Of a DNA stretch of 64,000 nt, positions 2,818-50,615 are shown in pieces. Position 1 is the first letter of the stretch. Every line of letters starts with the position of its first letter. The translations under genes were made by a program, and so were the position numbers. Below the pieces are notes generated by a model. The model was not told where the DNA came from and did no database searches. It worked only from the letters and a program-made list of their open reading frames with translations. This DNA comes from an uncultured Thermoleophilia bacterium. Its GTDB lineage: Bacteria > Actinomycetota > Thermoleophilia > Gaiellales > Gaiellaceae. The stretch lies in contig CAWHFK010000007.1 of the NCBI GenBank assembly GCA_963828655.1, forward strand, positions 3-64,002, given 5' to 3'.

Positions 2818-4890
2818 TCAACCCTCGCCTGCGCCAGTGCTGTTAGGGATCTCTCCAGCGCCTTCGCCTGCGGCCTTCGCGCGTTCAGCCGCAGCCTCCG
2901 TTATCGCCACGGCTTTCTCACGTTCTTGTAGGGCATACGCCTTCGCGAGGTCGAATTCGAGATCGACGGAGAGCTCCGCCGGCCCGGTCACGGTGAGCGC
3001 GCGCTCCAACAGATTAGTCGCGGCGCGCCAGTCCGAGCGCCCGAGGGCGCGCCTACCCGCGACCGCGAGCTGGTCGCCGGCACGTTTGACCAGCGTCGGG
3101 TCGGTGTAACCGAGCTCGGTCTGGTACCGAACGGCCTGTTCGAGGTGGTAGCTGCGAAGCTCGTCGACTTCGATCATGTGTGGACGGGATGCGTCGAGCC
3201 AGTCGGCGAAGCGCTCGTGCAGCTCGGCCCGGACGGTTTTCGGGAGTGCGTCGTAGGTGGCGTCCCGGATCAGCTGGTGGCGGAAGCGAAAGGCGTTGTC
3301 ACCGGGAATTTGCGCTTCGTGAGGCTGAATCACGTCCTTGCGCACAAGCGCATTCAGGCACAAATGGAGCTTAGACTCCTCGTCGCCGAGGTATTCGACA
3401 GCGCTTTGGTGGAACACGCGACCCGCGACCGCTCCGCGCTCGAGCACACCACGCTCGGTCGGGTCCAGCTGGTCGAGACGAGCAGCAAGGAGCGCCTGGA
3501 TTGTCGGCGGCATCGCGAGCTCGCCAACACGTGACTCCTGTACGAGCGCGTGAAGCTCGACGATGAAGAGCGGGTTGCCGTCGGCAGCGGTGCAGATCCG
3601 CTCCTGCAGCTCCCGATCTGTCGCGCCCGCCTCGACATCTGTCGCACGGGCATTGCCCCAGACGCCACCCAGCTCCTCAAGCAGACAGGCAGACTCTTCT
3701 TCGTCAAGCGGCTCGATCAACGTTGCGGTTGCGTTCGGATTGCCGTCGCCCCACGCGGACCGGTGTTCCAGCAGATCCGGCCGGGCCATGCAAAGCAGGA
3801 GAATCGGCGCGTCGCCCGCGAGCGCAGCCACCTGCTCTACAAGGTTGAGGAACGTCTCTTCTCCCCAATGCAGATCGTCGAGCACACAAACCAGCGGCGC
3901 GTCCTGCGCTTCCTGCTCGAGCAGCTCGCGGAACGCCGAGGCGATCTCCGTTGCGCTCGTCCCCGACTCGATCTTCCCGAGCAGCGAACGAATCGCGGCT
4001 GCGGCCGCCTCGTTCTTGGGCAGCGCATCGAGCTGCTTGACGACCTCCACTATCGGCCAGTAGGTGATCCCCTTGCCGTACGACAGACAACGTCCGCGCA
4101 CGACACGCGCCTCCAGCCCGGCAAGAAACTCGGAGGCGAGCCGCGACTTACCGACTCCGGCGTCCCCGAGGATCGTAAACAGCCTGCAGGAGCGCGCACG
4201 TACCGCTTGGTCGAGGACGGCCCGCAGCTGCTCCAGTTCGGCCGTGCGCCCAATCATCGGCGTCGGAGGTCGATGTTCCGCCGGCGCGCGACGCAGGGAC
4301 AGGAGTTCCCAGGCAGGCACCAGCTCCGACTTCCCTTTCAGCTCCAGCGAACCGGCCGGCGACACGTCGACCGTGCCCTGGACGAGTTGCACTGTGCCGG
4401 CGCCTAATAGCACCGTCCCCGGCGCCGCAACCTGCTCGAGGCGTGCGGCGACGTTGACCGCATCGCCGGTCACTAGGCGCTCCGCCGTCCCGGTCACCGC
4501 CTCACCCGTGTTGATACCGATCCGCGCTCGAAGTTTCAGCTCCGGCAGTGCCGCCCGCATCTCGGACGCCGCCCGAACTGCACGCAATGCATCGTCTTCG
4601 TGCGCGACCGGTACGCCGAAGACGGCCATCACCGCATCGCCGATGAACTTGTCGACAACCCCGCCGTGCGCCTCGATGATGCCCTTCATCCGCACGAAGA
4701 AGTGCGCGAGCAGCGAACGTGTTGTTTCTGCGTCGACGGACTCTCCCGACGCGGTCGAGTCGACGACGTCGCAGAAAAGCACCGTCACGATCTTGCGCTG
4801 GATCCGTTCAACGGCTAATCGGACTCCGCAGTGCGGACAGAACGCGAACCCCTCCTCGCTCTCCTTTCCGCAGCTCGCGCAGACCTGCAT
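2818..4890 (-). CDS. Zinc-ribbon + class III nucleotidyl cyclase + AAA_16-type P-loop NTPase + C-terminal helical region
   Basis: Start at MQVCASCGKESEEGFAFCPHCG. Cyclase motifs are LFCDVVDST, DKFIGDAVMAVFG and GDAVNVAARLE. Walker A is GDAGVGKS and Walker B is VCVLDDLHW. Confidence 0.85.
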   Translation of the reverse strand: MQVCASCGKESEEGFAFCPHCGVRLAVERIQRKIVTVLFCDVVDSTASGESVDAETTRSLLAHFFVRMKGIIEAHGGVVDKFIGDAVMAVFGVPVAHEDDALRAVRAASEMRAALPELKLRARIGINTGEAVTGTAERLVTGDAVNVAARLEQVAAPGTVLLGAGTVQLVQGTVDVSPAGSLELKGKSELVPAWELLSLRRAPAEHRPPTPMIGRTAELEQLRAVLDQAVRARSCRLFTILGDAGVGKSRLASEFLAGLEARVVRGRCLSYGKGITYWPIVEVVKQLDALPKNEAAAAAIRSLLGKIESGTSATEIASAFRELLEQEAQDAPLVCVLDDLHWGEETFLNLVEQVAALAGDAPILLLCMARPDLLEHRSAWGDGNPNATATLIEPLDEEESACLLEELGGVWGNARATDVEAGATDRELQERICTAADGNPLFIVELHALVQESRVGELAMPPTIQALLAARLDQLDPTERGVLERGAVAGRVFHQSAVEYLGDEESKLHLCLNALVRKDVIQPHEAQIPGDNAFRFRHQLIRDATYDALPKTVRAELHERFADWLDASRPHMIEVDELRSYHLEQAVRYQTELGYTDPTLVKRAGDQLAVAGRRALGRSDWRAATNLLERALTVTGPAELSVDLEFDLAKAYALQEREKAVAITEAAAERAKAAGEGAGEIPNSTGAGEG

Positions 4891-5121
4891 CTTGATGACG
4901 CTAGACCCCTGCTGCGGGGATAGCAATCGCCGAGTCAAACAGTTCAGCAGCCTGCGGACGTTCAACGCCGTCGTGAGCAGGGCACCTTCGCAACCCCTGC
5001 GCAGCGCGCGCGGGTGGGAGTATTGCGCGCGCCTCCCCGCGCTTGCTTCACAAGCCCGTGCTGTCCCGCCGTCGTCTGCGCCAGCGTCTCTCAGTCGAGC
5101 GGCCAGCAGATGCCAGGGAGC

Positions 5122-5210
5122 GGCATCCTGGCCCGGCGCGGCCTCATGGCCGACTGCCGAATCGTGTCGGGCCTCCTGGCCCGTTGACCGGCGCAGGCCC
5201 CTGGCTTGGG
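5122..5210 (+). repeat. Four units (one perfect) of the GGCCTCCTGGCCCGTTGACCG family
   Basis: Perfect unit at 5170-5190 with degenerate units on both sides. Lies in the divergent intergenic region. Confidence 0.8.
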
Positions 5211-5636
5211 GCTCCGAGGGTCGATGGCTCCAGACTTCGCAGTTCCTGCGTCCACCGCCACTCTCCGAACGCCATCTCGGCGCAGTGCGCTCCCTCGTGA
5301 GGTCGACGGCGTAGTCGGCGTGGATGTGCGTGTGTGTTAGTCGGCTGGGGCCAGTGGTCTCTCGCCTGGCCATCTGTTTCCCCGGCCCGGGCAGTTCACG
5401 CTTTCTTCACGTGGCACGCGCACCATCAGAAGCCGTGGCCGCACAAGCCGAACATGACTGGCCGGCGAACGGTCAGGACCCGACCAAGACGACGACAAGC
5501 TCCTATTCGCCCTGAGCATTGGAGCGTCACTCGTCGCCGCGATCGGGCTACTGATCTTCTTAGTCGTCCGATAGAGAGCGCGAAGAACCTCGAGGCCGGG
5601 TCAACGTGCCGCCGGCTCCCCCATTAACGTGTCATC

Positions 5637-10733: not shown

Positions 10734-12065
10734 GTGGAGATGCCCGAGACGCGGTATGCCCGGAGCGGCGGGGTGAACATTGCCTACCAGGTCGCGGGCG
10801 AGGGGCGTGACCTGCTGTGGATCCCGGGATTCGCACAGCACATCGAGCTTTCGTGGGACGAGCCGTATCGCAGGCGCTGGCTCGAGGACCTGGCATCGAC
10901 GTTTCGCCTGATCGTGTTCGACAAGCGCGGGACGGGACTATCGGATCGCGTCGATGAGGCTTCGGCGCTCGACGTCCGGATGGACGATGTCCGCGCCGTC
11001 CTCGATGCGGCCGGCTCCCGCCGCGCGGCCATCCTCACCGCCGGCGACGGTTCCGACCTCGCCCTCGTCTTCGCTGCAACGTACCCCGAACGCGTTCTCG
11101 CGCTCGTGCTGTGGGACGGCAACTACCGCGGCTCGTGGGCGCCTGACTGGCCCTGGGCGCCTCCGCGCGAGGAGACGCTGAGGATGATCGAGGAGATGGA
11201 GCGAAACTGGCCGAACTCAGCAGCACAGGCCGTGCGGCGCGGCGCGCCGAGCCTGAGCGACGACGAGCTCGCTGCGTTCACGCGACCGATCCGGCTCAGC
11301 GTCAGCCCCGGCGCCGCCGCTTCCTTCGCGCGGATGACCCTCGAATCTGATGTGCGCGCGATCCTCCCGACAGTCCGCGCCCCTACGCTCATCCTCCACA
11401 GCGCCGGGCAGCCCGACACCGAAGCGGCGCGGCACGTCGCGTCGAAGCTCCCCAACGCCGAATTCGTCACGCTCGACCGCGCCGATCGGATCCCGGTCGT
11501 CGGTGACACAGCGTCCCTCCTCAAACATGTTCGCCGGTTCGTACGTGAGGCCGAGACACGGCCGGCGGCCGACCGCGACCGCGTCCTCGCGACAGTTCTT
11601 TTCACGGATCTAGTAGGGTCGACGGCGCGTGCAGCCGAGCTCGGCGACCGCGCCTGGCGCGACCTGCTCGAGCGCCACCATGCGGCGATCCGGGCAGAGC
11701 TCGCGCGTTTCAGCGGCGTCGAACACGATACCGCTGGCGACGGATTCTTCGCCTCGTTCGATGGACCGGCGCGCGCGATCCGCTGCGCGCAGGCGATTCA
11801 CCGCGCCGTCGAGCCCCTCGACCTCGAGCTGCGCGCCGGCCTTCACACGGGCGAGTGCGAGCTGCTCGACGACAAGGTCTCCGGCATCGCCGTCGCGATC
11901 GGCGCCCGCGTCGCCTCTCGCGCGGCACCGGGAGAGGTGCTCGTCTCGCAGACGGTCAAGGACCTCGTCGCCGGATCCGGAATCGCATTCGACGACCGCG
12001 GCGTGGCCGAGCTGAAGGGCGTGCCAGGCGACTGGCGTCTCTACGCCGTCTCTCCACCCACCTAG
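10734..12065 (+). CDS. Alpha/beta hydrolase - class III cyclase-homology fusion protein
   Basis: N-terminal half has LIVFDKRGTGLSD (hydrolase fold). C-terminal half has LFTDLVGST, DTAGDGFFASF, LHTGECE and GIAVAIGARV. Confidence 0.85.
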   Translation: MEMPETRYARSGGVNIAYQVAGEGRDLLWIPGFAQHIELSWDEPYRRRWLEDLASTFRLIVFDKRGTGLSDRVDEASALDVRMDDVRAVLDAAGSRRAAILTAGDGSDLALVFAATYPERVLALVLWDGNYRGSWAPDWPWAPPREETLRMIEEMERNWPNSAAQAVRRGAPSLSDDELAAFTRPIRLSVSPGAAASFARMTLESDVRAILPTVRAPTLILHSAGQPDTEAARHVASKLPNAEFVTLDRADRIPVVGDTASLLKHVRRFVREAETRPAADRDRVLATVLFTDLVGSTARAAELGDRAWRDLLERHHAAIRAELARFSGVEHDTAGDGFFASFDGPARAIRCAQAIHRAVEPLDLELRAGLHTGECELLDDKVSGIAVAIGARVASRAAPGEVLVSQTVKDLVAGSGIAFDDRGVAELKGVPGDWRLYAVSPPT

Positions 12066-13256: not shown

Positions 13257-13363
13257 GGTCGTAGGCGTAGCGGACGGCGTGTGCGCGGGCGCCAGTCTTT
13301 GCGTGACGGGCTTCATGGGCGCGGCGCCGCTATAGCCTCCCTACGGTCCGCCGCCTCAGTCGC
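13257..13363 (+). repeat. Copy A of a ~110-nt direct repeat (partner at 16435-16545)
   Basis: Shares the identical 36-nt core TGACGGGCTTCATGGGCGCGGCGCCGCTATAGCCTC. About 85-90% identity overall by eye. Confidence 0.85.
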
Positions 13364-13611
13364 ACACCCGACCAGTACGACCAGATGCGCGAGACTCTCG
13401 GTATCGGCGACACCCCACCGGCGGGGCGTGTTTCACGCGGCCGCGGTCGGCGAAGACGGAAAGAATCGAGTCTTTGAGGTCGCTCGCGCCGAGCCTTCGC
13501 CTGGAGCAGCGTCCCGTTTCTGAACGACCGTCGTCGAGAGGAGCAACGCGCCGACGGAGGCCGGTCGCCACCTCCTTGCTGGCTGTTCGCGGCCCCGTCG
13601 GTGCGCGGCCG

Positions 13612-16074
13612 TCAACTCGCGGGAAGCGAGCCGTCAATCGCCTCGGCGAGCGAGAGGCGACGACCCGCCGACATCAACGCGTCGAGCTGCCCCGGCTCGA
13701 GGGCGCTCCTCAGGCGATGGAGCACATCGTCGTCCAGAACCTGTTCGGAAGGCTCCAGGCTCAGATCGATCTCCTCGCGCAGGCACGCGACGGCGCCAAG
13801 GAGCCGTGCGCCCCGTTCCGCATCGCCGCGGCGCACGGCGATCGCCGCAAAGACACGGAGGAGGCACGAGAGCTCGACGAGCTCGTTCCCGGCGCGCGCC
13901 GGTGCGACCCCTGCCAGGGCGGCTTCCTCCGCGTCGTCCAGACGGCCGAGTTGGACGTAGGCCGTCGCGAGATTCACGGTTGCGGTCAGCAACGTCCCCT
14001 CGTCGAATCGTCGTCCCAGGTCGACGGCCTCGAGCAGCAGCGTGACCGCACGGTCGTAGTTGCCGGCCGAGAGTGCCAGGTCACCGAGATTGACGAGGCT
14101 GATCGCGATCCCACGGTCGTTCTCCGTTACGCGGTGGGCCCTCGCGACCTCCTCGAAGAGGCGCTGAGCCTCGTCGAGGTCACCCTCCGCCTGGGCTACG
14201 TTCGCGAGGTAGCCGAGCGCCGCTGTGATCGTTCGCGGGTCAGCAGCCTCGTTCGCGAGGGCGAGGGCGTGCTCCGCAGCCGCACGAGACGCCGGGAGAT
14301 CTCCCTGGCGATAGCAGGCGAATGAGCGAAGCGCCTCTGCCCGAGCATGCAGCGCAGCGTCGTCGACGCCGCCTGCCAGCGCCCCCTCGAGCTGCTCGCG
14401 AAACTCCCGCTGCGAGCCGCGGAGGAAGACCTCGCTTGCGCCGGTCATGATCCTGAGTTGCAGCGCAGCGTTCCCCGTCTCCCGGGCCGAGGCTACGGCG
14501 GACTGCAGGTTCGCCTGGTCGCGATCCACTGCCGCCATGGCGCCGCGCAGGCTGCTCGGCTTGAGTTCCGCCAGGTAGATCGCGTCGGCCAACGCTGCGT
14601 ACCAATCCGCGTGTCGTTCCGCAATCAGGTCGCGTTCGGACGACTGACCGAGACACTCGCTCGCGTACTCCCTGACCGTCTCGAGCATCCAGAAGCGGTT
14701 GTCGTCGCGAACACGCACCAGGCTCTTGTCGACGAGCAATTGAAGCGTGTCGACGTCGGCGTCGCAGATCTCCTCCGCCGCCTCCAGCGTGCAGCCGCCG
14801 GCGAACACCGCCAGCCTTGCGAAGAGTCGTTGCTCGTCGGCGCTCAAGAGGTCGTAGGACCACTCGATCGTCGCCCGCAGCGTCTGCTGCCGCGGGTCGA
14901 CCCCTCGCCCTGCCTTGAGCACGTCGAGGCGCTTGGAAAGACGCTCGAGGAGCCGCTCGGGTGAGAGGACGTTGACGCGCGCCGCCGCGAGCTCGAGTGC
15001 AAGCGGCAGCTGCTCGAGTCGCGTGCACAACTCTCCCACCTTCTCGTCGGCGACGAAGCTCGGCAGGATCGCCCTCGCCCGAGCGAGGAAGAGCGCGGCT
15101 CCGTCGTCTGGCTCGAGCGGAGGCACCGGATACGCCTGTTCGCCGGGGGCCCGGAGCACCTCGCGGCTAGTCACGAGGAGTTGGAGGTTCGGGCACGCCG
15201 CGAGCAATTCGGAGAGCTCGCCTGCAGCGTCGACGACCTGCTCGAAGTTGTCGAAGAGCACGAGCACCGATCTGTCCCCGACGTGCTCGGCGAGATCGTT
15301 CTTCGCGCCGAGCGCTCGCGCTGCCGTCTCCAGGACGAGCCGTGGCTCCCGCAACGACGCGAGGGGAACCCAGAACACCCCGCCCGGGTGCCGCTCGGCA
15401 GCCTCAGCCGCTGCTTGCAGACCGAGCCGAGTCTTGCCCGTTCCACCCGGCCCCGTGAGCGTGAGCAACCGCACGTCAGCGCGGGCGAGCAGCCCGAGCA
15501 CGTCCGCCAGCTCCTGTGTGCGGCCGAGGAACGGGGTCGCCGGAACGGGCAGGTTTGTGCGGTAGAGGCTCCTGAGCGGCGGGAACTCCTCCGGCCCCAG
15601 CTGAAAGATCCGCTCGGGCGCCGAGAGGTCCTTCAGCCGGTGCTCGCCGAGGTCGCGGAGCGCGGCAGCGTCCACGAGCGCAGCGGTCGGCGCCGAGATC
15701 AGCACCTGTCCGCCGTGGCCACAGGCCGCGATGCGGGCCGCTCGGTGCACGTCGATCCCCACGTATCCCTCTTCGCCGAGATGCGGGGTGCCGGTGTGGA
15801 TGCCCATGCGCACCCGAACCGGTCCCGCGGCCAATGCCGCGACGGCCTCGGCGGCTGCGCGCAACGCACCCGGGGCCGTGGGGAACGCAACGAAAAGGGC
15901 GTCGCCCTGCGTATCGACCTCGACACCGCCCTCGGCACCGAATGCGCTGCGCAGGACGCGGCGGTGCGCTGCGAGCGCTTCTGCGTATCGAGCCTCACCC
16001 AGCTCGTGCAAGAGCCTGGTTGACCCCTCGATGTCCGTGAACAGGAAGGTGACGGTGCCGGCCGGGAGAGCCAC
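13612..16074 (-). CDS. Cyclase-homology domain + NB-ARC (STAND) NTPase + TPR protein
   Basis: FLFTDIEGST, VDTQGDALFVAF, GIDVHRAARI. Walker A is GPGGTGKT and Walker B is LVLFDNFE. Also LLVTSRE, a QLPLALELAA (GxPLA-like) motif, and a long TPR-like tail. Confidence 0.9.
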   Translation of the reverse strand: MALPAGTVTFLFTDIEGSTRLLHELGEARYAEALAAHRRVLRSAFGAEGGVEVDTQGDALFVAFPTAPGALRAAAEAVAALAAGPVRVRMGIHTGTPHLGEEGYVGIDVHRAARIAACGHGGQVLISAPTAALVDAAALRDLGEHRLKDLSAPERIFQLGPEEFPPLRSLYRTNLPVPATPFLGRTQELADVLGLLARADVRLLTLTGPGGTGKTRLGLQAAAEAAERHPGGVFWVPLASLREPRLVLETAARALGAKNDLAEHVGDRSVLVLFDNFEQVVDAAGELSELLAACPNLQLLVTSREVLRAPGEQAYPVPPLEPDDGAALFLARARAILPSFVADEKVGELCTRLEQLPLALELAAARVNVLSPERLLERLSKRLDVLKAGRGVDPRQQTLRATIEWSYDLLSADEQRLFARLAVFAGGCTLEAAEEICDADVDTLQLLVDKSLVRVRDDNRFWMLETVREYASECLGQSSERDLIAERHADWYAALADAIYLAELKPSSLRGAMAAVDRDQANLQSAVASARETGNAALQLRIMTGASEVFLRGSQREFREQLEGALAGGVDDAALHARAEALRSFACYRQGDLPASRAAAEHALALANEAADPRTITAALGYLANVAQAEGDLDEAQRLFEEVARAHRVTENDRGIAISLVNLGDLALSAGNYDRAVTLLLEAVDLGRRFDEGTLLTATVNLATAYVQLGRLDDAEEAALAGVAPARAGNELVELSCLLRVFAAIAVRRGDAERGARLLGAVACLREEIDLSLEPSEQVLDDDVLHRLRSALEPGQLDALMSAGRRLSLAEAIDGSLPAS

Positions 16075-16192
16075 CGGCAGATGCTCTCACGGTTCCGCGC
16101 CGGCTTGGCGACATCGGCGACTGCCGCAGGTTTGCGGAAGTGGGCGTGTGCTCCGACGCTCGGTTGATGACTGACGTTTCATTTTTCGGCCG

Positions 16193-16262
16193 GGCCTCCT
16201 GGCCGGTTTGACAGAAAAGGGCCTCCAGGCCCGTTGACGGATGCGGCCTCCTGGTCGGAGGC
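16193..16262 (+). repeat. Three units of the GGCCTCCTGGCC...TTGAC family
   Basis: Unit starts at 16193, 16220 and 16245, period 25-27 nt, in the divergent intergenic region. Confidence 0.8.
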
Positions 16263-16434
16263 CAGATTCGCCGTGACCACGAATCGGGCGGTGTCGGATC
16301 CCCGTCTGGAGGGCTTACTCACTCGAGGAGGCGATCGTGGGGAGATCGTTCGTTTGCCTGGGCGAAGCACCGCCGGATGGGCCAACGTTCCGGTAAACCC
16401 CGCCTGAAGATTCTGTGTCGTGAGGTTGAGCAAC

Positions 16435-16545
16435 GGTCGTATGCGTAGGGACGGCTTGTGCGCGGCCGGGGGCGCCGGCCTTGCATGACGGGCTTCATGG
16501 GCGCGGCGCCGCTATAGCCTCTCTACGGCCCGCCGCCTCAGTCGC
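16435..16545 (+). repeat. Copy B of the ~110-nt direct repeat
   Basis: Aligns with 13257-13363 in the same orientation. Ends 15 nt before the TTG start at 16560. Confidence 0.85.
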
Positions 16546-16559
16546 CCAGGGGGCAACCG

Positions 16560-17084
16560 TTGTCGCTTTTTCACACCGTGCCCAACAGAATGGTCGGCAC
16601 CGTTCTCTATCCGCTGCATGAGCTCGAGGACATCGATCCGGAGACGTGGCGGCAAGAACGCGAGAAGTACGCGGGTCGCGAGCAGGTGCTCGAGAAGCGC
16701 GTCCCTCCTCTGAACTGCCTCTGGAACGACGTACTCCACCTCAGCGCTGTCCACCCAGCGGACATCATCGCCGCTCTAGCCGACGTTGGCCTTGAGCCAC
16801 TACGACGGCGATTCTTCGAGATCGATCCGTTCGATCTCGACTCAACCCGCACCGTCGTCTTCATCAACCATCGCGCAAGCGCCGCGAACGCCCCGGACGA
16901 GTCGCAGTGGGTGCCGTTCCAGCCCGACGCGCTAACCGAGCTCTCCACCCTCAACGAGGCGAGCCGGCGCTACTACCGTGAATGCGCTCAGGCAGGTAGG
17001 AGGCCCTTACTGTGGGGGTACCTTCCGCACGTGCTCTATCGCGGCCCGCTCGACACTCGGGCGTTGCGGATCATCGAAGTCTGA
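16560..17084 (+). CDS. Conserved hypothetical protein
   Basis: 174 aa, TTG start preceded by AGGGGG, coding-like composition, no family name recognised. Confidence 0.6.
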   Translation: MSLFHTVPNRMVGTVLYPLHELEDIDPETWRQEREKYAGREQVLEKRVPPLNCLWNDVLHLSAVHPADIIAALADVGLEPLRRRFFEIDPFDLDSTRTVVFINHRASAANAPDESQWVPFQPDALTELSTLNEASRRYYRECAQAGRRPLLWGYLPHVLYRGPLDTRALRIIEV

Positions 17085-17116: not shown

Positions 17117-17270
17117 CTCGCCTGCCCGAGTGATCCGGAGTGACCGTCGAACAGCGACCGATCAGATTCGCTCTCTGAATCTGATTCGCAAGTTTCTCGG
17201 AAGGCAGCCGGCAACTCGAAACTCGTGAATCTGGTTCGGCTGCGCCGAATCAGATTCGGTGGCCTGGGCC
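17117..17270 (+). repeat. Copy 1 of a ~155-nt three-hairpin element (MITE-like or structured RNA)
   Basis: Near-identical to 35706-35861 (a few substitutions and a 2-nt indel). Contains the GAATCTGATTCG motif four times as two inverted pairs. Confidence 0.85.
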
Positions 17271-17571
17271 CCAAGCGACGACTGCCTCACATGGGCCGGT
17301 GTTGCTCCTATGTCAATAGCGGCTCGTTTTTGAGGGTGGTGAAGACGGTTCGTGCGAGTTGTCGTTTCACGTCGATCAGATCGTCCCGCGATTGAAGACG
17401 TTGCGCGTGAACCAATCTGGCTTCCGGTAGTGCGGCCGGGTGCCCATCCAGCGCACCGTACCGCCCGTGATGCGGGCGCCGACTGATGCATAACCCGGCT
17501 CCGAGCCAGCGCGGCACGCCCTGGCCGGAGGTGCGCCGCCGCACGCGGGAGGCGCGGGCCAAGACGCGCGC

Positions 17572-17967
17572 TTGAGCGCCTTCCTCGACGCCAATGTCCT
17601 GATCCGGCACCTGACCGGCGATCCGCCCGCTCAGGCGCGTCGCGCTTCCGCCTTCCTCGAACGAGCGGAAGAGTTGCTCGTGCCCGACCTGATCGTCGCG
17701 GAGGTTGTCTACGTCCTCGAGTCGTTCTACGAGGTCGAGCATCAACGCGTCGCGGAGCTCGTTCGCGCGATCATCGGGTTCCCGGTGATCGTCGTCGTCG
17801 ACGAACCGCTGCTCCTCCGAGCACTCGAGGTCTACGAAGTTGACCGACTCGATTTCGCCGAGGCCTACCTCGTCGCAAGCGCAGAAGCGACCGGCGTCGA
17901 GACCATCGCATCATTCGACCGCGAGATAGACCGAGTCGCCACGGTGCAGCGCATCGAGCCGGCCTGA
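17572..17967 (+). CDS. PIN-domain (VapC-like) toxin
   Basis: SAFLDANVLIRHL...DLIVAEVVYVL...DFAEAYLVASA...SFDRE shows the PIN acidic quartet pattern. TTG start. Confidence 0.8.
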   Translation: MSAFLDANVLIRHLTGDPPAQARRASAFLERAEELLVPDLIVAEVVYVLESFYEVEHQRVAELVRAIIGFPVIVVVDEPLLLRALEVYEVDRLDFAEAYLVASAEATGVETIASFDREIDRVATVQRIEPA

Positions 17968-23627: not shown

Positions 23628-24836
23628 ATGGCTGCGGAGGCGAGCCTAGGAGCGCATCCCGAGATCACTGCCGGGCGGCTGGCGTCTCCGCGGACGGCCT
23701 TGGTGCTCGGTGTCGCGGCGGTGCTGTTGGTTGCGGCCGCTATCCCGTTGGCCATTGTGAGACACGGCCTGTCGCAGGGGATCATTGTCATTCCCTTCGG
23801 GGTCGTCGGTTTCGTCGTGGCGCGGCGTCAGCCCCACAATCCAATCGGCTGGATCCTGCTTGGTATGACGCTCGCGTTCCTGCTCTCGGACGACGGCGGG
23901 AGCTATGCGGTCCTCTACTACCGGCGGGGCTACGGTGCCCTGCCGCTCGCCCGGGTCGGAGCCTTTCTCGCTGCGTGGTGGATCTGGCTGCTCCTCCTGT
24001 TGCCGCTGCCGATCGGGCTTTTCCCCGACGGGCGCCTGTCAGGACGCTGGCGTGCGGTGGTCTGGGTGTATCTCGGGGTCTGCGCGCTGTTCGTGGTGGG
24101 TTATACGTGGCAGGACGCGACCGGGATCGCTGCCCGGCACATCCGGGTCGACTCCAACGGTGAGCTGGTGTCCGCCGACGGCGGCTTTGGCGGCTCGGCG
24201 GTCAAGGGTGTGATGGCCGTCTCCTTTTTCGCCTTCTGCGTGGCCTGTGTCGGCCGCCAGATTCTCAGCTACCGGCGCTCGGCGGGAGAGCATCGCCAGC
24301 AGCTGAAGTGGCTGCTGAGCGGCGGTGCGATCTCGATCGGCGGTCTCCTGCTCGCGATGGCCATCAACAACAGCAACAACGCGGTCTTGAGTGCCCTGGG
24401 CTTCATCGGCTTTGTCAGCGTCGCCGCCCTCCCGTTCGGGATCGGGGTCGGCATCCTCCGCTACCGGCTCTACGAGATCGACCGGCTGATCAGCCGCACG
24501 CTCTCCTATCTGATCGTTACCGGCCTTCTGGCCGGCGTGTTCGTCGGCACCGTCGTGCTCGCAACCGACGTGCTGCCGTTCTCCTCTCCGGTCGCGATCG
24601 CCGCCTCGACGCTGGCCGCCGCCGCACTGTTCAACCCCTTGCGAAGACGCGTGCAGCATCTGGTCGACCGGCGCTTCAACCGCACCCATTACGACGCCGA
24701 AGCGATCGTCGCGGGGTTCAATGCCCACCTCCGCGAAGCAGTCGACCTCGACACCGTGCGAAGCGAACTACTCCAGGCCGTCGGCGCCGCCGTCCAGCCC
24801 ACCCACGTGTCGCTCTGGATCAGACCATCTGCCTAA
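23628..24836 (+). CDS. Polytopic membrane protein resembling the sensor half of actinobacterial histidine kinases, without a kinase domain
   Basis: 402 aa with about 8-10 TM helices. Ends RYRLYEIDRLISRTLSYL...LFNPLRRRVQHLVDRRFNR.HYDAE...SLWIRP. Paralog at 34073-35281. Confidence 0.8.
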   Translation: MAAEASLGAHPEITAGRLASPRTALVLGVAAVLLVAAAIPLAIVRHGLSQGIIVIPFGVVGFVVARRQPHNPIGWILLGMTLAFLLSDDGGSYAVLYYRRGYGALPLARVGAFLAAWWIWLLLLLPLPIGLFPDGRLSGRWRAVVWVYLGVCALFVVGYTWQDATGIAARHIRVDSNGELVSADGGFGGSAVKGVMAVSFFAFCVACVGRQILSYRRSAGEHRQQLKWLLSGGAISIGGLLLAMAINNSNNAVLSALGFIGFVSVAALPFGIGVGILRYRLYEIDRLISRTLSYLIVTGLLAGVFVGTVVLATDVLPFSSPVAIAASTLAAAALFNPLRRRVQHLVDRRFNRTHYDAEAIVAGFNAHLREAVDLDTVRSELLQAVGAAVQPTHVSLWIRPSA

Positions 24837-26496: not shown

Positions 26497-28941
26497 CTAA
26501 TCTGCGCGGAGGGCGAGCGTGAGTGTCTCCTCGAGCGTAAGTGCGCGTCCCTCCGCGTGGAGGGCTGCAAAGGCATCCTCGCCGAGGCTTGCGCGTAGAG
26601 CTGCCTTCGCCTCGTCGCGGACACGGGCCTCGAGCGGCTCGAGGTCTGAGGCTGTCTCCTCACACAGCGCGTCCGCGCGGCCGAGCAGGCGCGCGGCCCG
26701 AGCCGGGTCATCGCGTGCGTACGCCGTCCCGAGACTGGCGAATCCGTACATGAACCCCTCCACCTGCCCCAGTTCGCGTGCCGCACTGAGACCATCGCGC
26801 AGAAGCGGACGTGCGTCCCGGGCATCGTCGAGCAAGAGCATCGTGAAGCCGAGATTCAACGATGCGCGGGCGATGAGGTCTTGGTTGCCCAGCTCCCGGC
26901 CGGCAGCCAGGCTCTCTTGGAAGAGCTCGAGCGCCCGTTCGTACTCGCCGCGACTCAGCTCGACGTTGCCGATGTTGTTCACGCAGTGAGCTACCAGCGC
27001 CGAGTCGCCCAGCTCGCGCGCGAGTCCCGCCGCCTCTGCGTGCAGGCGCACGTCCTCATCCGGGTCGTCGGTGACGATCCCTGCGATCAGCAGGCCGTCG
27101 AACCGCGTCCGCGGGGAGCCAATCTCCGCGGCGAGGGCGAGAAGCTCCTCCGAAACGGCGCGCCCCCGCTCGACGTCCCCCTGCCAGACGGCGAGCAGGC
27201 CGGCGCCCGGGAGCGCGTCGGCGCGTAGGCGCGGATCGTCGCAGCCGGCGAGAGCCGGCTCGAGCCAGCGGCGGCCCTCGCTCCAGTAGCCCCGCGCGAA
27301 CCAAAACTCGAAGGCCGCGGCGCCGAGCCGCAATGCGACGTCGGCGCGACCGTGCTCGAGCGCGTCGCCGAGCACGGCGCGGAGGTTGTCGTGCTCCGCT
27401 TCGAACCGGTCGAACCAGACCGACGAGCTCCAGTCCCGCAGCTCCGGCTTCGCGAGCTCGCCGAGCTCGAGAAAGTACGCGGCGTACCGTCGCCGGAGAT
27501 CCTCGGCGCCACTGGAGTCTCCGAGCCGCTCGAGCGCGAGCTCGCGGATCGTCTCCAGCATCCAGAAGCGCTCGTCCGTATGCCGCAGCAGGCTCTTGTC
27601 GACGAGCGACTGCAGCGCGTCCAGGTCGGCGTCGCAGACGCTCTCAGCCGCTTCCAGCGTGCAGCCGCCGGCGAACACGCCGAGCGCGGCGAAGAGCCAC
27701 TTCTCCTCTTCGGTGAGGAGTTCGTAGCTCCACTCAATGGTGGCCCGCAGCGTCTGTTGGCGCGCGTCGGCGTCGCGGCCACCCCTGAGCAGATCGAGCC
27801 GCTGGGAGAGACGTTCGAGGATCTGGCGCGGGCTGAGCACGCTCGTTCGCGCCGCGGCCAGCTCGACGGCCAGGGGCAGATCGTCCAGGCGGGCGCAGAG
27901 CTCTGCGATCTCCTCGCTCGGCTCCAGACGGGAGCGGGTACAGAAGAGTTCGACCGCCTCGGGGCCGGCCAACGGCGGCACCGGGTATTCGGTCTCGCCG
28001 CGGATGCGCAACAGCTCCCTGCTCGTCACCAAGAGGCGGAGGTTTGGGCAGGACTCGAGCAGCGAGCCGAGCCCCGGCGCGGCTTCCACCACCTGCTCGA
28101 AGTTGTCCAACAGCAGGAGCAGCTCGCGTTCGCCGATGTGCTCGGCCAGGCCGTCCTTGGCGCCCAGCGTCTGGGCGACGGTCTCGGCGACGAGAGCCGG
28201 GTCGCGCAGGGCGGCCAGACCGACCCAGAAGACGCCGTTCCGGAACTCCGGCACCAGCTCGGCCGCCGATTCGACTGCGAGTCGTGTCTTCCCCGAGCCG
28301 CCCGGGCCGGACAGCGTGACGAGTCGCGCACCGTCCTGCAGCAACTCGACCACGTCTGCCACCTCCCGCTCGCGGCCCACGAACGACGACACCGGCCGCG
28401 GCAAGTTCGTGTTCGAAATCGTCTTCAGCGGTGGAAACCGCTCCTCGCCAAGTTGGAAGATCCACACCGGCTCCGCGAAGTCCTTCAGCCGGTGCTCGCC
28501 GAGGTCGGTCAGCTCACCGTGAACGAGCGCCCGCGTCGCTGCGGACAGCACTACCTGGCCGCCGTGGCCCGAGGCAGCGATGCGAGCGGCCCGGTGCAGC
28601 TCGCGGCCGGCATAGCCTTCGCTTGTCAGCCGCAGCTCGCCGGTGTGCAGCCCCATCCGCACCTTTACCTCGCCCGACGTGAGCGCCTCCTGACCCTGAT
28701 CCGCGGCGGCCAGCGCCTTCCCCGGATCGGTAAAGACATAGAGAAACGCGTCTCCCTGCGTGTCGACCTCCAATCCGCCATGCGCGGAGAACGCGACGCG
28801 CAGAACACGACGGTGCTCCGCGAGCGCGCGCACGTAGGCTTCCTCGCCGAGCTCGTCGATGAGCCGCGTCGAGCCCTCGATGTCAGTGAAGAGCAATGTG
28901 ACGGTGCCGGCCGGAAGATCCGCACGCACGGTCGAGATCAT
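26497..28941 (-). CDS. Cyclase-homology domain + NB-ARC (STAND) NTPase + TPR protein (paralog of 13612-16074)
   Basis: LLFTDIEGST, VDTQGDAFLYVF, GRELHRAARI. Walker A is GPGGSGKT and Walker B is LLLLLDNFE. Also LLVTSRE, DLPLAVELAA and TPR-like repeats. Confidence 0.9.
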   Translation of the reverse strand: MISTVRADLPAGTVTLLFTDIEGSTRLIDELGEEAYVRALAEHRRVLRVAFSAHGGLEVDTQGDAFLYVFTDPGKALAAADQGQEALTSGEVKVRMGLHTGELRLTSEGYAGRELHRAARIAASGHGGQVVLSAATRALVHGELTDLGEHRLKDFAEPVWIFQLGEERFPPLKTISNTNLPRPVSSFVGREREVADVVELLQDGARLVTLSGPGGSGKTRLAVESAAELVPEFRNGVFWVGLAALRDPALVAETVAQTLGAKDGLAEHIGERELLLLLDNFEQVVEAAPGLGSLLESCPNLRLLVTSRELLRIRGETEYPVPPLAGPEAVELFCTRSRLEPSEEIAELCARLDDLPLAVELAAARTSVLSPRQILERLSQRLDLLRGGRDADARQQTLRATIEWSYELLTEEEKWLFAALGVFAGGCTLEAAESVCDADLDALQSLVDKSLLRHTDERFWMLETIRELALERLGDSSGAEDLRRRYAAYFLELGELAKPELRDWSSSVWFDRFEAEHDNLRAVLGDALEHGRADVALRLGAAAFEFWFARGYWSEGRRWLEPALAGCDDPRLRADALPGAGLLAVWQGDVERGRAVSEELLALAAEIGSPRTRFDGLLIAGIVTDDPDEDVRLHAEAAGLARELGDSALVAHCVNNIGNVELSRGEYERALELFQESLAAGRELGNQDLIARASLNLGFTMLLLDDARDARPLLRDGLSAARELGQVEGFMYGFASLGTAYARDDPARAARLLGRADALCEETASDLEPLEARVRDEAKAALRASLGEDAFAALHAEGRALTLEETLTLALRAD

Positions 28942-29040
28942 CCGCCGCCAAGAATCCTCCGTCCAGCCTCCGGCCCACTCCTGCGCTGGATCACCCGGCT
29001 TTGGACAATCCGGGAACCGTGACAATCCGCTCTATCGATC

Positions 29041-35378: not shown

Positions 35379-35702
35379 GACGAGGAGTGGCTGCTGGTCG
35401 TCTCAGGCACGCCAACCGTGCGGCATCCAGGCGGCGAGGAGCAGCTCGAACCATGGGACGTCGTCTTTTTTCCCTCCGGCCCCGCCGGAGCGCACCTCGT
35501 GCGGAACAACAGCGAGTCACCCGCCCGCGTCGCAATGTTCTCCTCGAGCGCCGCGGCGGTCGGTGCCGTCGTCTACCCGGACAGCGACATGGTCTGGGTC
35601 TGGACGGACGACGACGCAGTCGACATCATCGTCAAACGGAGCAGCGCCGTGGACGACATTGCACCGTGGACTGGAGAAGGAACAGCAGGCGCCGAGACGT
35701 GA
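35379..35702 (+). pseudogene. 5-prime-truncated cupin gene
   Basis: DEEWLLVVSGTPTVRHPGGEEQLEPWDVVFFPSGPAGAH aligns with residues about 65-105 of the intact cupin at 35977-36441. There is a stop at 35349-35351 and no N-terminal half. Confidence 0.7.
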
Positions 35703-35705
35703 GCG

Positions 35706-35861
35706 CTCGCCTGCCCGAGTGATCCGGAGTGACCGTCGAACAGCGATCCGAATCAGATTCGCTCTCTGAATCTGATTCGCGAGTTTCTCGGAAGGCAGCC
35801 GGCAACTCGAAACTCGTGAATCTGGTTCGGCTGCGCCGAATCAGATTCGGTGGCCTGGGCC
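35706..35861 (+). repeat. Copy 2 of the ~155-nt three-hairpin element
   Basis: Stems at 35749-35760/35768-35779 (12 bp), 35780-35787/35809-35816 (8 bp) and 35818-35830/35836-35848 (13 bp including one G-U). Confidence 0.85.
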
Positions 35862-35976
35862 AGTGTTGACCCCTGATAGGCGATGCTGTTCGGGATGGAG
35901 GCGAACGAATCGGTCGTAGTCGTGAACAAACAGGCGTGGTCAGACGATCAACGCTTTGCGAAAGGGGGTCGTCCGG

Positions 35977-36441
35977 ATGAAGGTCTTCAACCTCTACAAC
36001 GGCGACTTGGACAACTCGACGGAACGCGAGGGCTGGAACGTCAGGGCAGCGAAGGTCGGTGAGTACCTCGGCGGCGAATTGATCGGCGCAGGACTGTACG
36101 AGGCACAACCTGGCAACAAGGTCTGGCCGTATCACACGCATCACGCCAACGAGGAGTGGCTCCTCGTTGTCCGCGGTCGGCCCACCCTCCGCACGCCCGA
36201 GGGCGAGCGCCAGCTTGACGAAGGTGACGTCGTCTGCTTCCCGCGAGGCAAGGCGGGGGCGCATCAGGTCTGGAACGGAAGCGACTCCCCGATTCGTGTG
36301 CTCATGCTCTCGACACTCGTCGCTCCGGACATCGTCGAGTACCTCGATACGGGGAAGGTGGGCGCACGCAGCGTGGCGGGTGAACCAATCATGTTCGGCC
36401 GCCCGGGGCCCGAGCTCGATTACTGGGAAGGGGAGGAGTAA
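35977..36441 (+). CDS. Cupin domain protein
   Basis: WPYHTHHANEEWLLVVRG...GDVVCFPRGKAGAHQVWN covers cupin motifs 1 and 2. The ATG at 35977 has AAGGGGG upstream. Confidence 0.8.
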   Translation: MKVFNLYNGDLDNSTEREGWNVRAAKVGEYLGGELIGAGLYEAQPGNKVWPYHTHHANEEWLLVVRGRPTLRTPEGERQLDEGDVVCFPRGKAGAHQVWNGSDSPIRVLMLSTLVAPDIVEYLDTGKVGARSVAGEPIMFGRPGPELDYWEGEE

Positions 36442-36459: not shown

Positions 36460-36740
36460 GTGCCGGCACAGAAGTACCTCGCGTACCGGCTCGGTGCGAG
36501 CGACCTGTACCTGGTCGGCTACTCGAGCGTCTTCCTCATCGTGATCCTGCTGCTCCCACGGGGCATCCTGCCGTCGCTCACCGACCGGGGCCGACGGTTG
36601 CGTACCCGGAGGACGCCGCGCGAGACCCAGACCAAAGAGGTTGCCGCGTCGTGAGCGCACTCCTCGAGGTCGACGGAGCACACAAGCACTTCGGCGGCGT
36701 CGTTGCAGTCGGCGACTGCACGTTCAGCGTCGAGGAGGCG
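36460..36740 (+). pseudogene. Fragments of a branched-chain amino-acid ABC transporter (LivM C-terminus and LivG N-terminus)
   Basis: LYLVGYSSVFLIVILLLPRGILP (permease tail), a GTGA junction, then SALLEVDGAHKHFGGVVAVGDCTFSVEE (ATPase N-terminus). There is no Walker A after that. Confidence 0.5.
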
Positions 36741-37223: not shown

Positions 37224-37551
37224 AACCTTTGGACTGTTCGTCGAACCACATCGCGGGAGAACGAAGAGTCGGCGGGTTGCTCGGTGTTGCGGCAGCCCCT
37301 CCTTCTTGCGTGGCGGCGATCAGCGCACCCGCGCGGGACGACCGAACAGTGGCGTCCAGAAGCCCACATGGCGATCGCACCAAGGCCGGACCTCGACCGT
37401 CTTCAGAAAGCCAAGTGCGCTATGGGTTCGAGGAACTCCGCCTCAACGAGATTGTCTCAATGAGGTCGTCGCTCAGCGAGATCGCCTGGGTAGGGTCCCG
37501 CGTAGTGCCGCCCGGTTATCGAGCGGCCCGCTTTGCGCTTTGCGGGAATCG

Positions 37552-50482: not shown

Positions 50483-50615
50483 CGGTTCGTCGCCCGTCGG
50501 GACTGCGGGTTTCCACTGGTTTGCGCTCAGAGCGGGCAGACCGTCCTCTACCGTCGGACTCTGTGTTCGCATTCGCCGGCGGCCCCTTCGTCGGGTGCGC
50601 TGGTGGGCCATTGCC

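What the first reader, a model, noticed from the sequence alone, without database searches (positions are those of the whole stretch)
17117..17270. ~155-nt three-hairpin element present twice (MITE-like or structured RNA), copy 1
17117-17270 and 35706-35861 are near-identical and in the same orientation, differing by a 2-nt indel and a few substitutions. The 12-mer CGAATCAGATTC occurs four times as two inverted pairs. In copy 2 these give a 12-bp stem with a 7-nt loop and a 13-bp stem with a 5-nt loop. An 8-bp stem (CGAGTTTC/GAAACTCG) lies between them. The 13-bp stem contains a G-U wobble position, which works in RNA but not as a DNA palindrome and so hints at function at the RNA level. Both copies begin within 35 nt after the stop of a plus-strand ORF, and both end in GGCCTGGGCC. 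No transposase is associated with either copy. I do not recognise it as any known RNA family.
Basis: seen in the sequence. Interest (0 to 1): 0.65.

Follow-up and report, generated by a model that had tools for sequence, protein, structure and literature searches.

The report
REP hairpin doublet with distant transposase
The twice-occurring 155-nt element is a pair of inverted REP-type hairpin repeats, belonging to a repeat family common in soil Thermoleophilia whose matching helper transposase (RAYT) sits elsewhere in related genomes, so it is a new example of a well-known kind of bacterial repeat.

Summary
17117-17270 and 35706-35861 are the same element with unrelated flanks. No Rfam family matches.

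The real repeat unit is a ~40-nt hairpin. It has a loosely conserved 5' tail (GA)AACTCG and two 11-nt arms, GAATCTGGTTC and GAATCAGATTC. The stem top and the closing pair covary.

The window element is two such units in inverted orientation, tails facing inward, plus short extensions.

I found 305 units in 189 loci from Thermoleophilia/Gaiellales MAGs and soil metagenomes. About 94% are intergenic. They are enriched between convergent genes and almost absent between divergent genes.

In four related loci the same hairpins flank a ~150-aa gene with HUH and Tyr motifs. It hits Pfam Y1_Tnp. Its best fold match is the E. coli REP-associated tyrosine transposase (4ER8). Orthologues in other lineages are flanked by different hairpins.

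The element is therefore a REPIN/BIME-like REP doublet of a REP-RAYT system. It is a new member of a known kind.

The G-U argument for an RNA-level function is not supported. Unit orientation shows no bias toward the sense strand, and both DNA strands fold equally well. RAYT-driven mobilisation and any role at mRNA 3' ends are inferred, not shown.

The parts
17117..17158 (+). Copy 1, left extension (CTCGCCTGCCCGAGTGATCCGGAGTGACCGTCGAACAGCGAC). Shared with copy 2 and only loosely with copies in other genomes.
17159..17196 (-). Copy 1, REP unit A in minus orientation. Hairpin 17159-17188 (the + strand 5' arm has lost one base) and tail 17189-17196 (CAAGTTTC, one substitution). Slightly decayed.
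17197..17217 (.). Copy 1, 21-nt spacer TCGGAAGGCAGCCGGCAACTC between the two inward-facing tails. Conserved among doublet copies elsewhere.
17218..17258 (+). Copy 1, REP unit B. Tail GAAACTCG (17218-17225), closing T (17226), arm GAATCTGGTTC (17227-17237), stem top and loop GGCTGCGCC, arm GAATCAGATTC (17247-17257), closing G (17258).
   Evidence: Soil-metagenome contig depth spikes over 17214-17264, and many contigs match only 17217-17257/9.
17259..17270 (+). Copy 1, right extension GTGGCCTGGGCC.
35706..35748 (+). Copy 2, left extension.
35749..35787 (-). Copy 2, REP unit A in minus orientation. Perfect 12-bp hairpin 35749-35779 with loop GCTCTCT, and tail CGAGTTTC 35780-35787.
35788..35808 (.). 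Copy 2, 21-nt spacer.
35809..35849 (+). Copy 2, REP unit B. Tail GAAACTCG 35809-35816 and hairpin 35817-35849, with the conserved G.T wobble (G35825 with T35841).
35850..35861 (+). Copy 2, right extension GTGGCCTGGGCC. In copy 2 and some foreign copies the similarity continues as AGYGTT.
16560..17084 (+). Flanking gene upstream of copy 1. Hypothetical protein of 174 aa with no Pfam hit. Its stop lies 32 nt before the element.
17572..17967 (+). Flanking gene downstream of copy 1. PIN-domain (VapC-like) protein.
35418..35702 (+). Flanking ORF upstream of copy 2. Truncated cupin paralogue. Its stop lies 3 nt before the element.
35956..36441 (+). Flanking gene downstream of copy 2. Cupin_2 protein. 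Homologues appear in soil metatranscriptome contigs.

Best explanation
Each copy is a REPIN/BIME-like doublet made of two REP (repetitive extragenic palindrome) units in inverted orientation, with their conserved 5' tails facing inward. The units belong to a REP family that is abundant in soil Thermoleophilia (Gaiellales-type Actinomycetota), the group this window comes from.

One unit is a ~40-nt imperfect hairpin: tail (GA)AACTCG, a closing pair, arm GAATCTGGTTC, a 3-4 bp variable stem top, a 3-5 nt loop, and arm GAATCAGATTC.

The elements are non-autonomous. The likely mobilising enzyme is a single-copy HUH/Y1 transposase of the RAYT type. In related genomes it is flanked by these same hairpins. 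It would recognise the hairpin plus tail on single-stranded DNA and cut and rejoin without terminal inverted repeats or target duplications.

Once inserted, the hairpins persist mainly just downstream of stop codons. There they probably act as 3'-end structures of transcripts (exonuclease barriers or weak, U-tract-less terminators, also between convergent genes).

Shown here: the family, the hairpin selection, the extragenic 3'-end location, and the RAYT-REP association and co-divergence.
Inferred: catalysis by the RAYT, the transposition pathway, and any RNA-level effect.
For: (1) Family. About 70-75 of them carry the family, nearly all from Thermoleophilia/Gaiellales MAGs. A metagenome scan returned 120 more loci, 117 with family units. 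Together that is 305 units in 208 clusters over 1.05 Mb: 124 singletons, 42 '-+' doublets (the window architecture) and 27 '+-' doublets.

(2) Hairpin under selection. In 118 distinct units, 98% of cells pair. The closing pair is UA 37 / CG 35 / GC 28. The stem-top pairs are GC 72 / CG 37 and GC 101 / CG 12 / AU 2. These positions lie outside the search pattern. 0 of 500 shuffles reach the observed values, and slid controls collapse.

(3) Location. 116 of 121 units are intergenic. Of 206 clusters, 13 lie in genes, 71 between convergent genes, 67 between tandem genes and 6 between divergent genes. Background spacers in the same loci number 133, 343 and 121. Stop codons lie 5-13 nt before the stem, or overlap its TGA-containing end.

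(4) Cognate transposase. L237, L197, L126 and L240 carry a ~150-aa ORF with a '+-' REP doublet just upstream and a REP unit over its 3' end. It hits Pfam Y1_Tnp at 26.0 and 23.7 bits (cut-off 23). Its best NCBIfam match is REP_Tyr_transpos (E 5e-10). There are 166 homologues, many named RayT by JGI. HUH and Tyr are invariant. The AF2 model (pLDDT 82.9) best matches 4ER8, the E. coli RAYT bound to a REP hairpin (E 2.8e-6, TM 0.63).

(5) Genome link. L240 lies on the same 930-kb contig as L017, which carries an 88%-identical copy of the window composite.

(6) Co-divergence. Syntenic orthologues in L241 and L242 are flanked by different hairpins.

(7) Dispersal. The doublet core (35748-35853) has at least 14 copies at 80-92% identity with unrelated flanks. 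Soil contig depth over unit B is about 80 times that of its flanks in run X4.

(8) Ends. There are no terminal inverted repeats or target duplications at the ends, as expected for Y1-type mobilisation.
Against: - No RAYT gene lies in the 64-kb window, and the rest of this genome is not available.
- The 5' tail is only moderately conserved (AACTCG in about a quarter of regex-defined units; the best position is 78%). It is neither GTAG nor CGTC, the tags of the described REP super-families (PMC3733652).
- The RAYT scores below NCBIfam's equivalog cut-off (39.5 vs 80) and only just passes Pfam's.
- The two window copies share about 43 nt on the left and 12 nt on the right beyond the two units. 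A simple 'two REPs' model does not explain this.
- No clean filled-versus-empty site was found.
- No transposition or cleavage has been observed.
Confidence: 0.87

Rival explanations
1. The element is primarily a structured cis-acting RNA: a three-hairpin 3'-UTR module that terminates transcription, or protects or processes mRNA 3' ends. Its repetition would reflect selection for that function rather than mobility.
For: Strong bias to gene 3' ends and convergent spacers. Compensatory changes keep the hairpin. A G.U wobble is conserved in 110 of 118 units. The RNA fold is well below shuffles (z -4.3). One soil metatranscriptome contig covers 35749-35797. REPs in E. coli have reported effects on mRNA 3' ends (bioRxiv 10.64898/2026.03.23.713779, abstract).
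Against: Unit orientation shows no bias to the sense strand of the upstream gene (52 same, 64 opposite for singletons; 32 and 45 for multi-unit clusters). Units occur singly and in both doublet arrangements, so the 'three-hairpin' form is not the conserved entity. There is no U-tract and no Rfam family. Both DNA strands fold alike. The hairpins flank a RAYT and co-diverge with it, which an RNA-only model does not predict. As a secondary consequence of insertion this role is still plausible.
Confidence: 0.08
2. The four 13-bp palindromes CGAATCNGATTCG are double-stranded DNA binding sites for a dimeric protein (regulator, nucleoid or partition-type protein). The element would then be a site array rather than a hairpin element.
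For: Each arm is itself a dyad (GAATC-N-GATTC), with 19 nt start-to-start spacing within a pair. Arm-level dyad symmetry is also seen in the different hairpins flanking orthologous RAYTs (GAACT-T-AGTTC, AAAC-T-GTTT).
Against: Covariation is between arms (closing pair and stem top). That maintains an intrastrand hairpin, not separate palindromes. Clusters are nearly absent from divergent, promoter-containing spacers (6 of 121). The conserved G.T position breaks the dyad of the 5' arm in most units. No candidate binding protein is linked to the sites.
Confidence: 0.03
3. A classical MITE left by a DDE-transposase insertion sequence, or merely a local segmental duplication.
For: Small size, two near-identical copies, and no adjacent transposase.
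Against: No terminal inverted repeats and no target-site duplication at either copy. The flanks are unrelated, so it is not a segmental duplication. Hundreds of related units sit in other genomes with different flanks. The associated enzyme found is an HUH/Y1 transposase, not a DDE one.
Confidence: 0.02

Closest known systems
REPIN-RAYT systems of Pseudomonas fluorescens and relatives (Bertels and Rainey 2011, PMC3116915; Bertels et al. 2017, PMC5581495)
   Same: Two inverted REP hairpins form the dispersed unit. The units are extragenic. A single-copy Y1 transposase is flanked by the same repeats. The transposase keeps a conserved neighbourhood (L240/L241 synteny). Each RAYT lineage has its own hairpin sequence.
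   Different: The host is Thermoleophilia (Actinomycetota), not Proteobacteria. The sequences are unrelated. Both tail-inside and tail-outside doublets occur, and singletons dominate in my sample. The stems are themselves dyad-symmetric. The RAYT ORF reads through its downstream REP unit.
E. coli REP/BIME elements and RayT (YafM; structure 4ER8, Messing et al. 2012, PMC3479197)
   Same: Imperfect palindromes of about 35-40 nt with a conserved 5' flank, arranged in alternating orientation with conserved linkers (BIME-like). They lie between genes of operons, including ABC-transporter operons (L064, L026), and after stop codons. The associated protein's best fold match is 4ER8.
   Different: The 5' flank is AACTCG-like and only moderately conserved, not GTAG. 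Protein identity to 4ER8 is 13%, and sequence searches against the PDB find nothing. No IHF, gyrase or Pol I binding data exist here.
GTAG- and CGTC-tagged REP super-families (Di Nocera et al. 2013, PMC3733652)
   Same: Short stem-loop repeats. Head-to-head and tail-to-tail dimers. Close contact with coding regions, including supplying stop codons (here the TGA of T-GAATC and stop triplets in the tail).
   Different: Neither tag is present. Actinobacteria are not mentioned in that paper's text.
IS200/IS605-derived miniature elements (PATEs) and IS608/ISDra2 ends
   Same: Subterminal imperfect hairpins read by an HUH/Y1 transposase on single-stranded DNA. No inverted terminal repeats and no target duplication. 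ISDra2 and IS608 TnpA are the next-best fold matches.
   Different: In IS608-type elements both end hairpins lie on the same strand and flank a transposase or TnpB cargo. Here the units are inverted, the transposase is a fixed single-copy gene, and no TnpB was seen.

Membership tests
REP / REPIN (repetitive extragenic palindromes) | Short (about 20-40 nt) imperfect palindrome able to form a stem-loop | tested here: met
   Unit of about 33 nt of stem-loop plus an 8-nt tail. Folds. 98% of cells paired, with compensatory changes at 8 of 15 pairs.
REP / REPIN (repetitive extragenic palindromes) | Dispersed in many copies with unrelated flanks | tested here: met
   305 units in 189 loci. Contig depth over unit B is about 80 times that of its flanks in run X4, with many different continuations.
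REP / REPIN (repetitive extragenic palindromes) | More than about 100 copies per genome | tested here: inconclusive
Indirect estimates: 2 clusters in the 64-kb window, and 3 RAYT loci among 117 REP-seeded metagenome loci. These suggest tens to a few hundred units per genome.
REP / REPIN (repetitive extragenic palindromes) | Extragenic location | tested here: met
   116 of 121 units and 193 of 206 clusters lie outside GC3-called genes. The gene calls are my own heuristic.
REP / REPIN (repetitive extragenic palindromes) | Inverted doublets (REPIN) or alternating clusters (BIME) | tested here: met
   42 '-+' and 27 '+-' doublets plus larger arrays (for example L048 and L096), out of 208 clusters. 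Both window copies are '-+' doublets.
REP / REPIN (repetitive extragenic palindromes) | The same repeats flank a RAYT gene | tested here: met
   L237, L197, L126 and L240. The unit at the 3' end of the L126 RAYT differs from window unit B by 1 of 31 nt. Not testable for the window's own genome, since no RAYT lies in the window.
REP / REPIN (repetitive extragenic palindromes) | Conserved GTAG (or CGTC) tetranucleotide at one end | tested here: not met
   The 5' flank consensus is CG-AAACTCG-N. The best position is 78% conserved. There is no GTAG or CGTC.
RAYT (REP-associated tyrosine transposase), for the associated protein | HUH motif and catalytic Tyr of the Y1 fold | tested here: met
   Invariant H55-Y-H57 (CLMPTHYHL) and Y114 (YIAENPP) in 16 homologues. 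Pfam PF01797 at 26.0 and 23.7 bits against a cut-off of 23 (third sequence 19.0). Foldseek top hit 4er8_A, E 2.8e-6, TM 0.63.
RAYT (REP-associated tyrosine transposase), for the associated protein | Passes NCBIfam's REP_Tyr_transpos equivalog cut-off | tested here: not met
   NF047646 is the best hit, but at 39.5 and 36.0 bits against a cut-off of 80. This is a distant relative, not an equivalog by that model.
RAYT (REP-associated tyrosine transposase), for the associated protein | Single copy, vertically inherited, fixed neighbourhood | tested here: inconclusive
   L240 and L241 share glyoxalase, hydrolase, RAYT, acetyltransferase and 2-oxoacid dehydrogenase synteny. L237, L197 and L126 share flanks. 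Copy number per genome was not counted. L240 also has a second, more distant Y1_Tnp gene.
MITE | Terminal inverted repeats and target-site duplication | tested here: not met
   The ends CTCGCCTGCC... and ...GGCCTGGGCC are not inverted copies. No direct repeat flanks either copy.
Intrinsic (Rho-independent) terminator | GC-rich hairpin followed by a T/U tract | tested here: not met
   No terminator-like site at either copy. The 3' flank of the units carries no T run.
Any Rfam RNA family | Covariance-model match at the gathering score | tested here: not met
   0 matches in the window. The only sub-threshold hit is MIR820 at E 3.2.

The most novel reading that the evidence does not exclude
The stems of these REP hairpins are themselves two-fold symmetric. 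Each arm is a GAAnC-N-GnTTC palindrome, and the wobble pairs sit symmetrically. The different hairpins that flank orthologous RAYTs in two other lineages look similar, judged by eye from single loci (one clearly, one only in part).

This could mean a recognition mode unlike the E. coli RAYT-REP complex, for example a dimer reading a symmetric stem. It could also mean a dual life as hairpin and duplex binding site. A further possibility is domestication as bidirectional, U-tract-less terminators between convergent genes in this clade, since clusters occupy about half of the convergent spacers in the sampled loci.
Probability: 0.15. Interest if true: 0.55.

Novelty: new member of a known kind. 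Interest (0 to 1): 0.3.

Why it matters
REP/REPIN-RAYT systems have been studied almost entirely in Proteobacteria. In the full-text library I found no paper that links REPs, REPINs or RAYTs to Thermoleophilia or Actinobacteria. I also found no paper that holds these arm sequences in that sense. Annotation pipelines already label the protein 'RayT'.

A documented REP-RAYT pair in an uncultured, abundant soil actinobacterial class has several uses:
- It extends the known host range of the system.
- It gives a repeat model for masking and annotating intergenic regions and for MAG assembly and binning. Contigs break at these repeats.
- It offers a natural series of co-diverged RAYT-hairpin pairs for studying recognition specificity.

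For this window it means the finding is explained and ordinary. It does not mark a new RNA gene.

Tried and rejected
- **Rfam.** Gathering scan of the whole window and a permissive scan of copy 2 found nothing.
- **Exact-protein look-up** of a window gene to find the source contig: not on record.
- **Remembered probes.** E. coli RayT, IS608 TnpA and IS200 TnpA sequences, written from memory, were used only as probes with phmmer. They missed the Thermoleophilia RAYT. The best hit, the L062 ORF, had no Pfam domain. The RAYT was found instead by looking for ORFs lying between two REP clusters.
- **Recurrent flanking protein families.** These turned out to be housekeeping genes: ABC transporters, coaX/dus and others.
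- **PDB sequence and profile searches** with the RAYT gave no meaningful hit. Only the fold search worked.
- **Filled-versus-empty site comparison.** Similarity of L032 and L017 to the window ends at the neighbouring gene, so these are synteny breaks, not clean insertions. Soil contigs gave no empty-site joint.
- **Metatranscriptomes.** Only one short contig touches unit A, without strand information.
- **Long-range stem between the left extension and the spacer,** predicted by RNAfold. Rejected because the left extension is not conserved in other copies.
- **Middle 8-bp stem as independent evidence of structure.** Rejected, because it follows automatically from two inverted tails.
- **Hairpins flanking the second Y1_Tnp of L240.** None of this family.

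Full report
**1. Observation**

The two stretches are real and are one element. In the alignment, 17117-17270 and 35706-35861 differ by two gap columns and three substitutions. The sequence outside them is unrelated on both sides, so this is not part of a larger duplication.

The arm motif GAAYCNGRTTC occurs seven times in 64 kb, all inside the two copies, against 0.28 expected. The 12-mer with one mismatch allowed gives 10 strand-matches against 0.34 expected.

Copy 1 has lost one base of the first arm and carries a substitution in the adjacent tail, so it is slightly decayed.

One point was missed. GAATC-N-GATTC is itself a palindrome, so 'two inverted pairs' is also 'four copies of one dyad'. 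That opens a hairpin-versus-binding-site ambiguity, which I tested (section 4). Rfam has nothing.

**2. The true unit**

About 70-75 of them carry the family. Nearly all of these are from MAGs labelled Thermoleophilia, Gaiellales or Gaiellaceae, and the rest of the 119 are chance matches in other phyla.

BLAST of the 156-nt element against these loci showed near-full-length copies only in L032 (90%) and L017 (88%). A ~41-nt piece, query positions 103-143, recurs everywhere.

So the family unit is one hairpin. It consists of a 5' tail (GA)AACTCG, one closing pair, arm GAATCTGGTTC, a 3-4 bp variable stem top with a 3-5 nt loop, and arm GAATCAGATTC.

The window element is unit A in minus orientation, then its tail, a 21-nt spacer, the tail of unit B, and unit B in plus orientation.

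**3. Distribution and host**

117 of them carry units.

With a profile built from the units, I count 305 units in 208 clusters across 189 loci (1.05 Mb). There are 124 singletons, 42 '-+' doublets (tails inside, as in the window), 27 '+-' doublets (tails outside) and some longer arrays.

The window itself comes from this group. L032 (MAG MFD02199.bin.2.162, Thermoleophilia) is 96.5% identical to window 49894-50526, and other loci match window genes at 67-83%. The window's words occur in soil metagenomes.

In those soil assemblies, contig depth over unit B rises to 239 against about 3 on the flanks in run X4. Many contigs match only 17217-17257/9 and then run into different sequence. This independently confirms the unit boundaries and its high copy number.

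**4. Hairpin or duplex sites?**

On 118 distinct units, 98% of cells form standard pairs. Several pairs lie outside the positions fixed by my search pattern, and these covary:
- Closing pair: UA 37, CG 35, GC 28.
- Stem-top pairs: GC 72 / CG 37, and GC 101 / CG 12 / AU 2.
- A further arm pair: UA 89, UG 19, CG 9.

None of 500 shuffles reaches the observed scores, and sliding the partners by one to three columns destroys the signal. This shows selection for an intrastrand hairpin, not only for separate duplex palindromes.

Orthologous units between dus and coaX in three genomes differ at the stem top by compensatory changes.

The G.U (G.T) position is conserved in 110 of 118 units. As single-stranded DNA, however, both strands of the doublet fold into the same three hairpins (-32.7 kcal/mol, z -7.9; and -30.1, z -5.7). 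The wobble strand of unit B is only 1.6 kcal/mol better.

**5. Genomic context**

I called genes with a GC3 heuristic of my own. On that basis 116 of 121 units are intergenic.

Of 206 clusters, 13 fall in genes, 71 between convergent genes, 67 between tandem genes and 6 between divergent genes. The same loci contain 133 convergent, 343 tandem and 121 divergent spacers. The elements therefore sit at gene 3' ends and avoid promoter-only regions.

Stop codons typically lie 5-13 nt before the stem. Often they are inside the tail, or they overlap the TGA formed by a T:A closing pair plus GA. Di Nocera et al. note the same for GTAG REPs (PMC3733652).

Doublets sit inside ABC-transporter operons in L064 and L026. 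No T tract follows the hairpins.

The orientation of the wobble strand relative to the upstream gene is unbiased: 52 same and 64 opposite for singletons. This speaks against the sense transcript being the level at which the wobble is selected.

**6. The transposase**

Probes written from memory failed to find a transposase. I then listed ORFs lying between two REP clusters.

L237, L197 and L126 each carry a ~157-aa ORF with MPTHYHL and YIAENP motifs. It hits Pfam Y1_Tnp over the full profile (26.0 and 23.7 bits, cut-off 23; the third sequence scores 19.0). Its best NCBIfam match is 'REP-associated tyrosine transposase' (E 5e-10), though below the equivalog cut-off.

All three have a '+-' REP doublet just upstream and a REP unit overlapping the ORF's 3' end. 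The protein tails read ...LESGSA.PNQ(V/I)R, which is the translated hairpin.

A database search found 166 homologues. JGI names many of them RayT, and NCBI records label some 'transposase [Gaiellaceae bacterium]'.

One homologue, P0019, lies on the 929,937-bp contig that also holds L017, L058 and L071. It shows the same REP-RAYT-REP layout. L241 keeps the same gene neighbourhood, whereas L242 lies in a different one. Their RAYTs are flanked by different hairpins (GAACTTAGTTC..., GAAACTGTTTGGTG...). This is the co-divergence expected of RAYT-REP pairs.

HUH and the Tyr are invariant in 16 homologues. An AlphaFold2 model (pLDDT 82.9) best matches 4ER8, the E. coli RAYT bound to a REP hairpin (E 2.8e-6, TM 0.63). 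ISDra2 and IS608 TnpA come next.

With the family profile, no RAYT is found in the window. Three of the 117 REP-seeded metagenome loci carry one.

**7. The window composite**

The doublet core, 35748-35853, has at least 14 further copies at 80-92% identity in other genomes and metagenomes. The spacer is conserved and the flanks are unrelated.

The two window copies share an extra ~43 nt on the left and 12 nt on the right. L159 shares the left part at lower identity. Several copies share a right-hand GGCCTGGGCCAGYGTT.

I cannot say whether these extensions are part of the mobilised unit in this lineage or remnants of a target. There are no terminal inverted repeats or target duplications.

**8. 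Mechanism**

Shown:
- A REP-type hairpin family under selection for pairing.
- Extragenic, at gene 3' ends.
- Arranged in inverted doublets.
- Flanks a RAYT-like gene and co-diverges with it.

Inferred from established knowledge of RAYTs and IS200/IS605 TnpA (PMC3479197, PMC3116915, PMC5581495):
- The RAYT binds the hairpin and its 5' flank on single-stranded DNA.
- It cleaves with its Tyr and disperses doublets in trans.
- The conserved wobble marks the strand that is read.

Inferred from location only: once inserted, the hairpins serve or are tolerated as 3'-end structures of mRNAs, including between convergent genes.

**9. Rivals**

The RNA-module reading is not excluded as a secondary role. 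It fails as the primary identity because of orientation, architecture variability and the RAYT link.

The duplex binding-site reading is contradicted by inter-arm covariation and by depletion from promoter regions. The arm-level dyad symmetry remains unexplained.

The MITE and segmental-duplication readings fail on ends, flanks and copy distribution.

**10. Novelty**

This is a new member of a known kind. I found no paper in the library that connects REP, REPIN or RAYT with Thermoleophilia or Actinobacteria, or that contains these arms in that sense. Pipelines already call the protein RayT. Interest is modest.

**11. Limits**

- Gene calls are heuristic.
- RNA evidence is one unstranded metatranscriptome contig.
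- No biochemical or transposition evidence exists.

Noticed in passing
window 1330, 1374, 1428, 2582, 5170, 16220, 18050, 37583, 45200 (each about 24 nt): A second repeated motif, GGCCTCCTGGCCCGTTGACCG(GCG), occurs about 9 times with up to 5 mismatches. All copies are on the + strand. Some are in tandem (1330-1450, 16190-16270). One forms a GGCCTCC/GGAGGCC hairpin near 16246. It may be another small repeat family.
   Followed up: partly
window 13299-13366 and 16481-16548: A 68-nt direct repeat at 94% identity (TTGC[G/A]TGACGGGCTTCATGGGCGCGGCGCCGCTATAGCC...). The second copy lies just upstream of ORF 16560-17084. Function unknown.
   Followed up: no
window 35418-35702 and 36724-37383: Gene remnants around copy 2. 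The first is a 94-aa cupin fragment, 57% identical over 46 aa to the C-terminal half of the intact cupin 35956-36441. The second is a Bac_transf fragment with low GC3 (0.65). This suggests a decaying or rearranged region.
   Followed up: partly
window 13612-16074, 26497-29025 (also 2818-5373, 10734-12065 and 51776-55375): Several paralogous large regulators. Two were scanned and show adenylate/guanylate cyclase, STAND NTPase and TPR domains. Repeats D2-D4 at about 72-75% nucleotide identity reflect them. 23628-24836 and 34073-35281 are another paralogue pair (402 aa each, no Pfam hit).
   Followed up: partly
window 17572-17967: A PIN-domain (VapC-like) gene with no obvious antitoxin ORF of normal size upstream. 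Only short ORFs lie in 17300-17575.
   Followed up: no
L237 1420-1470, L197 1050-1100, L126 about 270-330, and many homologues in A6: RAYT ORFs read through the downstream REP unit. Their disordered C-terminal tails (...ESGSA.PNQVR) are translated hairpin, and pLDDT is below 50 there.
   Followed up: partly
L240 18314-18925: A second, more distant Y1_Tnp gene (203 aa; E 4e-21 to the RAYT profile) lies 8 kb from the RAYT on the same contig. It is not flanked by this REP family.
   Followed up: partly
L032 634 onward versus window 50527 onward; L017 7004 onward versus window below 45320: Similarity between the window and two related MAGs ends at a gene end, about 20 nt (L017) and about 110 nt (L032) from their REP composites. 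This suggests synteny breakpoints near REP doublets.
   Followed up: partly
L013 (CAVPZI010000005.1) and L085 (CAWFCM010000024.1): Contigs of MAGs labelled 'uncultured Alphaproteobacteria' carry units of this family. L013 has a clear doublet. This could be mislabelling or mis-binning, or transfer.
   Followed up: no
L086 about 2196-2220: A run of more than 20 A follows a REP unit inside a local duplication of the same region. It is probably an assembly artefact at the repeat.
   Followed up: no
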